A stretch of 64,000 nucleotides of DNA from a virus, in IMG/VR virus record IMGVR_UViG_3300025098_000014, one strand, 5' to 3'. The notes below the pieces were generated by a model. The model did no database searches, was not told where the DNA came from, and saw only the letters and a program-made list of their open reading frames with translations. Each line of letters starts with the position of its first letter. Position 1 is the stretch's first letter. Of the stretch, positions 42,657 to 43,399 are shown piece by piece. The translations under genes were made by a program, and so were the position numbers.

Positions 42657-42792
42657 AGTACTCTACTGGATCATCAAGATTTTCTCGCGTATCTTGTTGA
42701 TATGCTTCTTTATTGGAAAATACTTCAGATTCCAATTCCTGAACGAGGGCTTTCATGGTTAAGACTAGACCCTTTAAAACTTGTCTATCCAT
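42622..42792 (-). CDS. hypothetical acidic protein
   Basis: MDRQVLK...LESEV.S...DDDGYPD. Confidence 0.7.
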   Translation of the reverse strand: MDRQVLKGLVLTMKALVQELESEVFSNKEAYQQDTRENLDDPVEYFADGDDDGYPD

Positions 42793-42813
42793 CAGAATAA
42801 TAAGGTTTTGTCT

Positions 42814-42852
42814 ATTATACACAAAAAAGGGGTCCCCGTCAAGGAACCCCTT
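42814..42852 (-). terminator. terminator overlapping a sigma70 promoter
   Basis: GGGGTTCC-TTGACG-GGGACCCC-TTTTTT, with TTGACG-N17-TATAAT running through the hairpin. Confidence 0.75.
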
Positions 42853-42869
42853 TATCTATGTAAGCGTGA

Positions 42870-43037
42870 TCACTTGCTATAAGTTCTACCGCGATAGCAG
42901 AAAGTCCCGTGAGACTCTTTACTTTCTACACAACGGGTAGAATACTCAACACCACGATATGAAGTGTGGGTAATCTGTGCGTCATGCAAAGCAGATGCTT
43001 TTTGAATCTGCTTGCGAATGAGATTAAGTGTGTTCAT
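42870..43037 (-). CDS. DUF4278-like small protein
   Basis: Start MNTLNLI after AGGAG; two YRG motifs (YRGVEY, YRGRTY). Confidence 0.8.
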   Translation of the reverse strand: MNTLNLIRKQIQKASALHDAQITHTSYRGVEYSTRCVESKESHGTFCYRGRTYSK

Positions 43038-43069
43038 GTTGTTACTCCTGAAGTTAGGGTGGTTTAATC

Positions 43070-43301
43070 CCCGTTCCTTCAGTCGTTTGCGTCCCAATAC
43101 CACTGACATTCTGGTGCTGAGTCCTTAAGGGTCTCAACTAACTCAACCTTAAGTGAATTACTAAGGTTAGTATTGTTCTCAATCTTCAACATAATAGCAT
43201 CAGTTTGAGTGCAACTGAGTGTTGTATAGAATAACAGTTCTAGCATGGGATGAACGGCTCCGTTCCGCGACTTACTTGCGTCCCACAGAGTGGGATGAAC
43301 G
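43070..43301 (-). ncRNA. double glutamine-riboswitch-like RNA (glnA / Downstream-peptide class)
   Basis: Two CGUUCAUCCCA...UGGGACGCAA...GGAACGG units; E-loop AGUA/GAA; sigma70 promoter directly upstream and DUF4278 gene downstream. Confidence 0.8.
43079..43246 (-). CDS. 55-aa ORF nested in the riboswitch loop
   Basis: Manual translation MLELLFYTTLSCTQTDAIMLKIENNTNLSNSLKVELVETLKDSAPECQWYWDAND; GGAG 11 nt upstream. Confidence 0.7.
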   Translation of the reverse strand: MLELLFYTTLSCTQTDAIMLKIENNTNLSNSLKVELVETLKDSAPECQWYWDAND

Positions 43302-43309
43302 ACAGGTCT

Positions 43310-43338
43310 ATTATAGACCTCATACTGTATTTAGTCAA
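43310..43338 (-). promoter_or_regulatory. sigma70 promoter for the riboswitch transcript
   Basis: TTGACT-N17-TATAAT, with an overlapping late-type CTAAATA; +1 predicted near 43303. Confidence 0.75.
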
Positions 43339-43349
43339 CCCTATAGAGC

Positions 43350-43378
43350 AAAAAAAACCCGGAGATTTTTTCCCCGGA
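43350..43378 (-). terminator. rho-independent terminator
   Basis: CCGGGGA-AAAAA-TCTCCGG-G followed by T8. Confidence 0.75.
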
Positions 43379-43399
43379 TTCTTGAAATTAAAAGTTGAA

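What the first reader, a model, noticed from the sequence alone, without database searches (positions are those of the whole stretch)
43070..43301. Double glutamine-riboswitch-like RNA that wraps a whole protein-coding gene inside an aptamer loop
Seen (minus strand): unit 1 is CGUUCAUCCCAC-UCU-GUGGGACGCAAGUA-AGUCG-CGGAACG. Unit 2 is CCGUUCAUCCCA-[~150 nt]-UGGGACGCAAA-CGACU-GAAGGAACGG. The ~150-nt loop is almost the whole of an intact 55-aa ORF (43246..43079) missing from the ORF track. Its AUG lies in the 5' strand of unit 2's P2 stem and can pair with the ORF's own W-Y-W codons (AUGCUA/UGGUAU). Its UGA lies in CGAC-UGA-AG, and its GGAG Shine-Dalgarno lies between the units. Neither unit has a local P3, but AGUCG (43268-72) and CGACU (43081-85) are complementary. 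An outer glnA-type aptamer can therefore form from the 5' half of unit 1 and the 3' half of unit 2 (E-loop AGUA/GAA, shared P3). It would enclose a second, circularly permuted aptamer (GAACG-GAGC-CGUUC) that holds the SD. Established: glnA and Downstream-peptide RNAs bind L-glutamine in cyanobacteria, can occur in tandem, and are linked to gifB or DUF4278 genes. Inference: ligand binding and translation of the nested ORF are mutually exclusive, making a nitrogen-sensing switch between two phage peptides.
Basis: partly seen in the sequence, partly recalled or inferred. Interest (0 to 1): 0.9.

Follow-up and report, generated by a model that had tools for sequence, protein, structure and literature searches.

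The report
Gene inside interlocked glutamine riboswitch
A marine cyanobacterial virus carries a glutamine-sensor-type RNA made of two sensor cores folded one inside the other, and one stem closes around a complete, conserved 55-codon gene, so folding the sensor and translating that gene must compete on the same RNA; I found no published description of this layout.

Summary
Observation confirmed. The window is a T4-like cyanophage. The element heads a roughly 470-nt unit: sigma-70-like promoter, double RNA, 55-aa ORF, DUF4278-like ORF, terminator.

All 70 variants that flip the inner P1 pair break both local P1s. In 41 variants the long-range tertiary pair flips across units. The shared P3 also covaries.

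The nested ORF is a real gene (phrog_504, dN/dS 0.27). Its synonymous variation collapses where it encodes the RNA core. It is optional: 72 of 356 lack it, 69 carry an ORF in the other P2 loop, and an ORF-less copy passes Rfam's glnA cut-off.

The best-supported output is a covarying helix over the DUF4278 ribosome-binding site (glutamine ON). NtcA boxes in homologous promoters (57/149 versus 6/399 in controls) support nitrogen control.

Not shown: glutamine binding, translation, and whether glutamine switches the nested gene off. The GGAG site and the extended start-codon pairing are not general. The original 2010 glnA alignment holds such sequences, but as separate local units. This scan found the same system earlier in at least ten other windows. 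New variant of a known kind.

The parts
43353..43383 (-). Intrinsic-terminator-like hairpin closing the upstream operon
43310..43338 (-). Sigma-70-like promoter (TTGACT-17-TATAAT, 11/12); a T4-late-like CTAAATA lies inside it at 43334-43328; no NtcA box in this copy
43304..43320 (-). Inverted repeat spanning the -10 box (7 bp stem); a hairpin folds here in 306/326 homologous regions versus about 32 in shuffles
43297..43301 (-). Outer P1, 5' strand (CGUUC), pairs with 43076-43072
43281..43295 (-). P2 hairpin of unit 1 (6 bp); variable, covarying; holds an ORF in 69/356 homologues
43273..43280 (-). Outer J2/3 CGCA plus E-loop 5' strand AGUA; C43278 makes the long-range pair with G43071
   Evidence: pair defined in PMC6698751
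43268..43272 (-). Shared P3, 5' strand (AGUCG)
43252..43265 (-). Inner, circularly permuted P1' hairpin GAACG-GAGC-CGUUC; G43260 pairs long-range with C43089; contains the GGAG candidate SD (43261-43258)
43246..43250 (-). P2' 5' strand (UCCCA), ending in the A of the nested start codon
43079..43246 (-). Nested ORF, 55 aa, phrog_504; predicted helical hairpin with a hydrophobic N-terminus and two invariant Cys; dN/dS 0.27
43086..43096 (-). P2' 3' strand (UGGGA) and inner J2/3 (CGCAAA), encoded by codons W-D-A-N
43071..43085 (-). Shared P3 3' strand CGACU, E-loop 3' strand GAA overlapping the stop codon, outer P1 3' strand GAACG and G43071; CUGAAG (43082-43077) doubles as the anti-SD strand
43045..43053 (-). 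CUUCAG (partner of the anti-SD strand) overlapping the AGGAG Shine-Dalgarno of the DUF4278-like gene
42870..43037 (-). DUF4278-like (IF17 N-terminus-like) ORF, 55 aa, two YRG motifs; Pfam 21.8 bits (cut-off 25.3), phrog_545
42826..42853 (-). Intrinsic-terminator-like hairpin ending the unit; overlaps the next promoter (42842-42814)

Best explanation
A cyanophage-borne, two-site glutamine riboswitch with interlocked cores. An outer type-I (glnA) aptamer is built from the 5' half of unit 1 and the 3' half of unit 2, and its P3 helix is shared with an inner, circularly permuted core. This fold is shown by covariation. The inner P2' stem closes around the 55-codon gene. Inferred mechanism: at low glutamine the outer P1 and P3 stay open, CUGAAG pairs over the DUF4278 ribosome-binding site, and ribosomes load on the nested ORF before P2' can close, so mainly the nested peptide is made. 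At high glutamine (with Mg2+), both cores close on any transcript momentarily free of ribosomes. This buries the nested start and stop regions and frees the DUF4278 site. My odds: crosswise fold about 0.95; glutamine is the ligand about 0.8; DUF4278 ON with glutamine about 0.7; nested ORF turned down by glutamine about 0.5.
For: P1 position 5/55: 286 elements read C,G,C,G and 70 read C,C,G,G, so the crosswise pairs hold in 356/356 and the local pairs in 286. Long-range pair: 41 elements have G in unit 1 with C after unit 2, and C in unit 2 with G after unit 1. In 52 natural ORF-less copies this pair is 100% paired crosswise (17 double changes) versus 69% locally. Cross P3 has 6 of 8 pairs with double changes; the local P3s have none. 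An ORF-less copy (ACG-2014f) scores 41.1 bits against RF01739 (cut-off 35), with the inner unit as a 41-nt P3 insert. The nucleotides equivalent to the glutamine contacts C1, G18, C39, G40, the C19:G41 pair and the G35 triple of PMC6698751 are present in both cores of the window. A two-piece, strand-swapped type-II aptamer binds glutamine. Anti-SD helix: CUAAAG goes with CUUUAG in 70/70 cases and never with CUUCAG; CUGAAG goes with CUUCAG 46 or CUUUAG 76. The predicted ligand-free state has anti-SD 0.999, outer P1 about 0 and P3 about 0. SD-region pairing drops from 0.78 to 0.41 in the window when the core is withheld, and from a median of about 0.76 to 0.52 in homologues. A YRG peptide follows in 337/356. 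NtcA boxes occur in 57/149 element promoters versus 6/399 other promoters. The ORF has dN/dS 0.27, and pS falls from 0.49 to 0.014 in the last five codons. 282/284 long P2' loops and 69/69 long P2 loops hold an ORF of 40 aa or more with its start in the 5' stem strand. Host gifB and DUF4278 riboswitches are ON switches (PMC6212724; PMC6698751).
Against: No binding, probing or translation data. The inner core lacks the E-loop and joins its ends by a 3-7 nt loop, an untested topology. Equilibrium folding puts P1' (0.99) and P2' (0.87-0.96) in place even without ligand, so repression of the nested ORF may not need glutamine. The nested stop codon lies inside the anti-SD helix, so terminating ribosomes should open the DUF4278 site, which blurs a clean either/or switch. 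The GGAG site is not general and not tied to the ORF on a tree. Anti-SD covariation is only suggestive after kinship correction (about 5 pairs same way, 0 opposite, median p 0.06). The window's own promoter has no NtcA box. The inner P1' flip positions are about 12 nt apart, so its 37 tree changes may be recombination of one block, and the outer long-range pair has only 2 well-supported independent pairs.
Confidence: 0.6

Rival explanations
1. Translational coupling. The riboswitch controls only DUF4278, and the nested gene is a constitutively translated passenger. Its ribosomes keep the aptamer open and, stopping at the UGA inside the anti-SD helix, themselves expose the DUF4278 site. The ORF then tunes or bypasses the switch rather than being switched off.
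For: 268/282 nested ORFs stop at the codon inside the anti-SD strand. The RNA also occurs without any ORF. ORF presence changes at least 42 times on the DUF4278 tree. P2' cannot close until about 150 nt after the start codon are transcribed.
Against: Every contact nucleotide and the P2' pairs stay under strong constraint across the ORF (pS 0.014; P2' of at least 4 bp in 278/282), so the folded state must form often enough to be selected. Start codons sit in the stem strand in all ORF families and in both loops.
Confidence: 0.25
2. The fold is as described, but the ligand is not glutamine, or only the outer core binds and the inner core is a structural scaffold.
For: The inner core has no E-loop and CG in place of GAAG before its P1 strand. 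The window scores below both Rfam cut-offs. About 28% of copies have AAA for the E-loop GAA.
Against: The inner core keeps the contact nucleotides and a covarying long-range pair. Type II binds glutamine without an E-loop. NtcA boxes and YRG peptides point to nitrogen.
Confidence: 0.12
3. Two ordinary tandem aptamers that each fold locally, with the ORF simply inserted in unit 2. This is how the 2010 glnA alignment treats such sequences.
For: In 286/356 copies local and crosswise P1 are interchangeable. The Weinberg 2010 alignment lists these units separately.
Against: 70 copies would have C-C and G-G in both local P1s, and 41 would break both local tertiary pairs. The local P3s show no double change. 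Predicted local P1 probability is about 0.
Confidence: 0.03

Closest known systems
Glutamine-I riboswitch (glnA RNA, Rfam RF01739), e.g. the Synechocystis gifB/IF17 leader (PMC6212724)
   Same: Outer core: P1 CGUUC/GAACG, P2, E-loop AGUA/GAA, P3 and the long-range pair. It lies upstream of a DUF4278-like gene with a competing helix over the RBS, and NtcA boxes are frequent in homologous promoters. An ORF-less natural copy passes the Rfam cut-off.
   Different: P3 is not a hairpin but a helix shared with a second, permuted core. The halves of the outer aptamer are about 190 nt apart. A whole gene lies inside the ligand-binding domain. It is phage-encoded; the window copy scores below cut-off.
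Glutamine-II riboswitch (Downstream-peptide RNA, RF01704; structure 6QN3, PMC6698751)
   Same: CGCA linker with a C:G long-range pair, no E-loop (inner core), YRG peptide downstream. It crystallised as a strand-swapped dimer and works as a two-piece RNA.
   Different: No 3' tail helix closing the type-II pseudoknot. The strand before the inner GAACG pairs with the strand after the inner CGCA. The strand swap here is intramolecular and genetically fixed.
Tandem glnA RNAs (Weinberg 2010, PMC2864571) and phage glnA annotations (S-CREM1, PMC9964418; Melnitz, PMC9004378)
   Same: Two units in a row. Members of this very family are in the 2010 glnA alignment, and S-CREM1's 99-nt glnA hit has the length of an ORF-less double element (an inference from length only).
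   Different: They are treated as independent local units or as single hits. The passages I could search mention no interlocked fold and no gene inside a P2 loop.
Leader-peptide attenuators and uORF-coupled switches (own knowledge)
   Same: A ribosome on a short ORF competes with RNA structure that gates a downstream gene.
   Different: Here the ORF is a conserved 55-aa folded-protein gene inside a metabolite aptamer, not a sensing peptide upstream of a terminator.

Membership tests
Glutamine-I riboswitch (RF01739) | Score at or above Rfam gathering cut-off (35 bits) | tested here: inconclusive
   Window copy 24.7 bits, unit 1 only. The natural ORF-less homologue L081 scores 41.1 bits over the outer fold. 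I could not scan the window with its ORF removed.
Glutamine-I riboswitch (RF01739) | Three-way junction P1/P2/P3 with E-loop | tested here: met
   Outer core: P1 356/356, AAGUA in all parsed elements, GAA 257 or AAA 98, P2 and cross P3 covary. The parser required most of these letters.
Glutamine-I riboswitch (RF01739) | Long-range pair between J2/3 and the base after P1 | tested here: met
   Outer pair C-G 309+, G-C 41+; 52/52 paired with 17 double changes.
Glutamine-I riboswitch (RF01739) | Sits 5' of a DUF4278/IF17-like or other nitrogen gene | tested here: met
   DUF4278 E 2.5e-4, below Pfam cut-off; YRG peptide after 337/356 elements.
Glutamine-I riboswitch (RF01739) | Binds L-glutamine selectively and changes expression | not testable with these tools
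   Needs probing, ITC and reporters.
Glutamine-II riboswitch (RF01704) | Score at or above gathering cut-off (33 bits) | tested here: not met
   24.8 bits in the window; 24.6-32.1 in homologues.
Glutamine-II riboswitch (RF01704) | 3' tail after GAACGG pairs back to close the pseudoknot | tested here: not met
   Rfam alignment shows broken pairs there; the strand in question covaries with the unit-2 strand instead.
Glutamine-II riboswitch (RF01704) | Ligand-contact nucleotides C1, G18, C39, G40, pair C19:G41, G35 triple | tested here: met
   Present in both cores of the window; inner pair C-G in 352/356 with 2 G-C flips.
IF17-like GS-inactivating factors (downstream ORF) | Inhibits glutamine synthetase through the IF17 C-terminal part | not tested
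   Only the DUF4278 (N-terminal) likeness is seen. PMC6212724 notes that picocyanobacterial IF17-like proteins lack the GS-binding C-terminus.

The most novel reading that the evidence does not exclude
A natural two-site riboswitch whose ligand-binding domain contains a whole protein-coding gene and acts as a reciprocal translational toggle: glutamine closes both interlocked cores, silencing the nested gene and freeing the next one. Its P2 loops serve as exchangeable slots for a family of small phage genes, letting a lytic phage choose which peptides to make according to host nitrogen status.
Probability: 0.4. Interest if true: 0.87.

Novelty: new variant of a known kind. Interest (0 to 1): 0.72.

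Why it matters
Riboswitch aptamers are assumed to be compact and to lie outside the genes they control. Here the aptamer halves are about 190 nt apart, contain a naturally circularly permuted second core, and enclose a gene under purifying selection. That explains why Rfam scans miss most copies, and it suggests other riboswitches may be hidden the same way. The element is widespread in T4-like cyanophages (439 phage records with a match, 276 over at least 80% of the query). It gives a concrete, testable handle on whether lytic cyanophages read host nitrogen status, an idea so far resting on NtcA boxes (PMC3037559). Natural ORF-less, one-ORF and two-ORF versions are ready-made controls.

Tried and rejected
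Scan of genome contigs with a 14-base junction pattern: the listed hits were scattered over unrelated taxa, consistent with chance; I excluded them without inspecting each. A loose pattern in the host family was uninformative.

A strict pattern in 401 genomes of the family of a Cyanobium MAG gave 9 hits, below the reversed-pattern control. The one with the exact phage-type junction lies on a 194-kb contig that matches cyanophage genomes; the other eight were not inspected. The double element was therefore not found on a host chromosome among those searched, while RF01704 was found in 39/61.

RNA runs: only relatives' contigs at small word shares. They cover mostly 42790-43285 but cannot show strand, start or expression, so they are not used as evidence.

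Function of the nested protein: no Pfam, NCBIfam or PDB sequence hit. The AlphaFold model (pLDDT 81) is a small helical hairpin with only generic matches (best Z 5.3; only uncharacterised phage proteins near the top). The Atlas gave unnamed clusters. I ran no complex prediction because there was no specific binding claim.

GGAG as a general SD: rejected as a family feature. Extended AUG/W-Y-W helix as a selected feature: not supported.

Ren 2015 and Ames and Breaker 2011 were not held, so the type-I numbering 23/60 is from memory and I could not check those texts for a remark on interlocked tandems. Ten paper searches found no description of the layout. (dN/dS part) and 92 failed and were rerun.

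Full report
Setting. The window lies in a 112-kb virus record. The region's closest records are cyanophages S-RIM44 and Syn1 (Kyanoviridae) at about 88% identity. The element opens a self-contained minus-strand unit: terminator 43383-43353, sigma-70-like promoter 43338-43310 (11/12 matches), the double RNA 43301-43071, the 55-aa ORF 43246-43079, a DUF4278-like ORF 43037-42870, and terminator 42853-42826. A search of the record with RF01739 found only this place.

Observation. The two-unit pattern never arose in 200 shuffles of the window. Rfam sees unit 1 weakly and below cut-off with both glutamine models.

Family. From IMG/VR scans and phage records I parsed 356 distinct elements. The sample is enriched by targeted searches, so frequencies are not population frequencies. 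The searches that fetched the variants did not specify the partner bases tested below. P2 loops hold an ORF in unit 2 only (235), both units (49), unit 1 only (20) or neither (52). ORF-less copies include ACG-2014f, Bellamy and S-PM2; P-RSM4 and P-SSM3 carry two ORFs.

The fold is crosswise. (1) At the variable P1 pair, 286 elements read C,G,C,G (unit 1 5', unit 1 3', unit 2 5', unit 2 3') and 70 read C,C,G,G. Crosswise pairing holds in all 356; local pairing would give C-C and G-G in 70. (2) The long-range pair (C19:G41 in PMC6698751; 23-60 in type-I numbering, from memory) flips across units in 41 elements: G in unit 1 with C after unit 2, while unit 2's C keeps the G after unit 1. (3) The shared P3 is 5-10 bp long and covaries, for example AGUCG/CGACU, AUUCG/CGAAU, AGUCA/UGACU and GGACGG/CCGCCC. 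On 52 natural ORF-less copies the crosswise structure has 15 pairs with double changes, a 100% paired outer tertiary pair and 6/8 covarying P3 pairs. The local alternative has tertiary pairs only 69% paired and no covarying P3. The ORF-less ACG-2014f copy passes the RF01739 cut-off (41.1 versus 35) with the inner unit read as a P3 insert. Caveats: on a tree of the downstream gene the inner flip agrees in 11/11 independent pairs, but its two bases are close and may travel as one recombining block; the outer pair agrees in 318/318 rows but in only 2 well-supported independent pairs. The argument rests mainly on the local fold being broken in these variants.

Both cores keep the pocket. The nucleotides that contact glutamine or build the site in the type-II structure (C1, G18, C39, G40, C19:G41, G35 triple) have equivalents in both cores of the window. 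The inner core has no E-loop and closes with a short loop whose first base is the long-range G (G in 352/356, with 2 G-C flips). The type-II RNA crystallised strand-swapped and binds glutamine as two pieces, so a swap is chemically tolerated. Binding here is inferred, not shown.

The nested ORF is a gene. It matches phrog_504 at E 2e-25, has 105 homologous clusters and is annotated in relatives. Over 74 distinct 55-codon sequences dN/dS is 0.27. Synonymous divergence is 0.49 in the middle but 0.014 in the last five codons, which encode the P2' strand, J2/3 and P3; GAC and GCA are fixed in 74/74. Protein and RNA are thus both selected on the same bases. 282/284 long P2' loops and 69/69 long P2 loops contain an ORF of 40 aa or more that starts in the 5' stem strand, and 268/282 unit-2 ORFs stop at the UGA/UAA of the E-loop strand. 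Most nested families are linked by profile comparison into one superfamily; one unit-1 family is not clearly linked. The window protein models as a helical hairpin with invariant Cys12 and Cys47 near its open end and a hydrophobic N-terminus. A disulfide-closed, membrane-targeted peptide is my guess; no named family or fold match supports it.

Output. The hexamer spanning P3 and the E-loop pairs with the hexamer overlapping the DUF4278 SD. UAA copies always have CUUUAG (70/70); UGA copies have CUUCAG (46) or CUUUAG (76) (Fisher p 2e-11 uncorrected; about 5 same-way versus 0 opposite independent pairs, p about 0.06). ViennaRNA puts the ligand-free window RNA in anti-SD (0.999) plus inner P1' (0.99) and P2' (0.87), with outer P1 and P3 absent; the crosswise fold is 8.6 kcal/mol higher, a gap that ligand, Mg2+ and tertiary contacts would have to pay. 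Withholding the core lowers SD-region pairing from 0.78 to 0.41. This matches the ON logic proposed for gifB (PMC6212724). I noted this helix, before seeing the scan's note e1-5643968.

Nitrogen context. A YRG peptide follows 337/356 elements, the signature of Downstream-peptide genes. GTA-N8-TAC occurs in 162/326 upstream regions versus 5 in shuffles, and in 57/149 element promoters versus 6/399 other promoters in the same loci. Most boxes end 8 nt before the -35 box and a minority overlap the start, so the sign is unclear. NtcA represses host gif genes (PMC6316151), and NtcA boxes in cyanophages are known (PMC3037559). The window copy has no box.

GGAG is present in 132/282 ORF-bearing and 0/74 ORF-less copies, but almost only in the short-P3 lineage, and the link is lost on the tree. 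The AUG is only partly paired in most copies (one base in 159/282, all three in 67). The stop codon sits in the anti-SD helix, so ribosomes finishing the nested ORF should themselves expose the DUF4278 site. Mutual exclusion of the folded aptamer and a translating ribosome follows from geometry; which side wins, and whether glutamine sets it, does not.

Known versus new. It works like a type-I glutamine riboswitch and its outer core meets the structural tests. It is not a type-II member. Tandem glnA RNAs and phage glnA hits are published, and the 2010 glnA alignment contains members of this family aligned as separate local units, with the ORF-bearing unit left in the flank (only part of that file is held). 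I found no text on the interlocked fold or on genes in P2 loops, within a library that lacks Ames and Breaker 2011 and Ren 2015. Earlier agents of this scan reached the same reading on other genomes; that is not independent evidence and my score rests on the tests above.

Verdict. Real, conserved, a new variant of a known kind. Fold about 0.95; full mechanism about 0.6; interest 0.72.

Noticed in passing
window 43320-43304 (-): Inverted repeat spanning the -10 box, kept as a hairpin in 306/326 homologous regions with varied sequence (about 32 expected). A T4-late-like TAAATA lies 25-27 nt before the element in 142/326, so a late transcript would begin with this hairpin while an early one would start just after it.
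   Followed up: partly
L082:660-690, L083:851-870, L086:851-864, L087:478-492: NtcA-type boxes (GTA-N8-TAC) in homologous promoters, either just upstream of the -35 box or over the start site; absent in the window copy.
   Followed up: partly
L082 (P-RSM4) and L087 (P-SSM3): Both P2 loops hold a gene; in P-SSM3 the unit-1 start codon pairs with the CAU next to its own stop codon.
   Followed up: yes
L005, L085 and others, just after the element: An extra GNRA-capped hairpin insert lies between the outer P1 and the DUF4278 start, which may be a different expression platform.
   Followed up: no
L069, about 30 nt after the nested stop: A repeated CUGAAGGAA stretch, a TAAATA and a further CGUUCAUCCC follow the element: possibly a third unit or a duplicated cassette.
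   Followed up: no
L034:1460-1500: The nested gene and unit 2 are present but unit 1 is missing: a single, locally closable unit around the ORF.
   Followed up: no
L087:222-406: A manA RNA (193 bits) lies about 85 nt upstream of the element in P-SSM3.
   Followed up: no
L757 / L789 (G383 contig 1, 193,981 bases): A cyanophage-like contig of whole-genome size inside a cyanobacterial genome assembly; it carries the element.
   Followed up: partly
P0173, P0179, P0183, P0198, P0199 and similar: Distant homologues of the nested protein lack the WDAND end, so the family may also occur outside the riboswitch; their genomic context was not fetched.
   Followed up: no
window 42853-42814 (-): The terminator of this unit overlaps a second near-consensus sigma-70 promoter (11/12) for the next small genes.
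   Followed up: no
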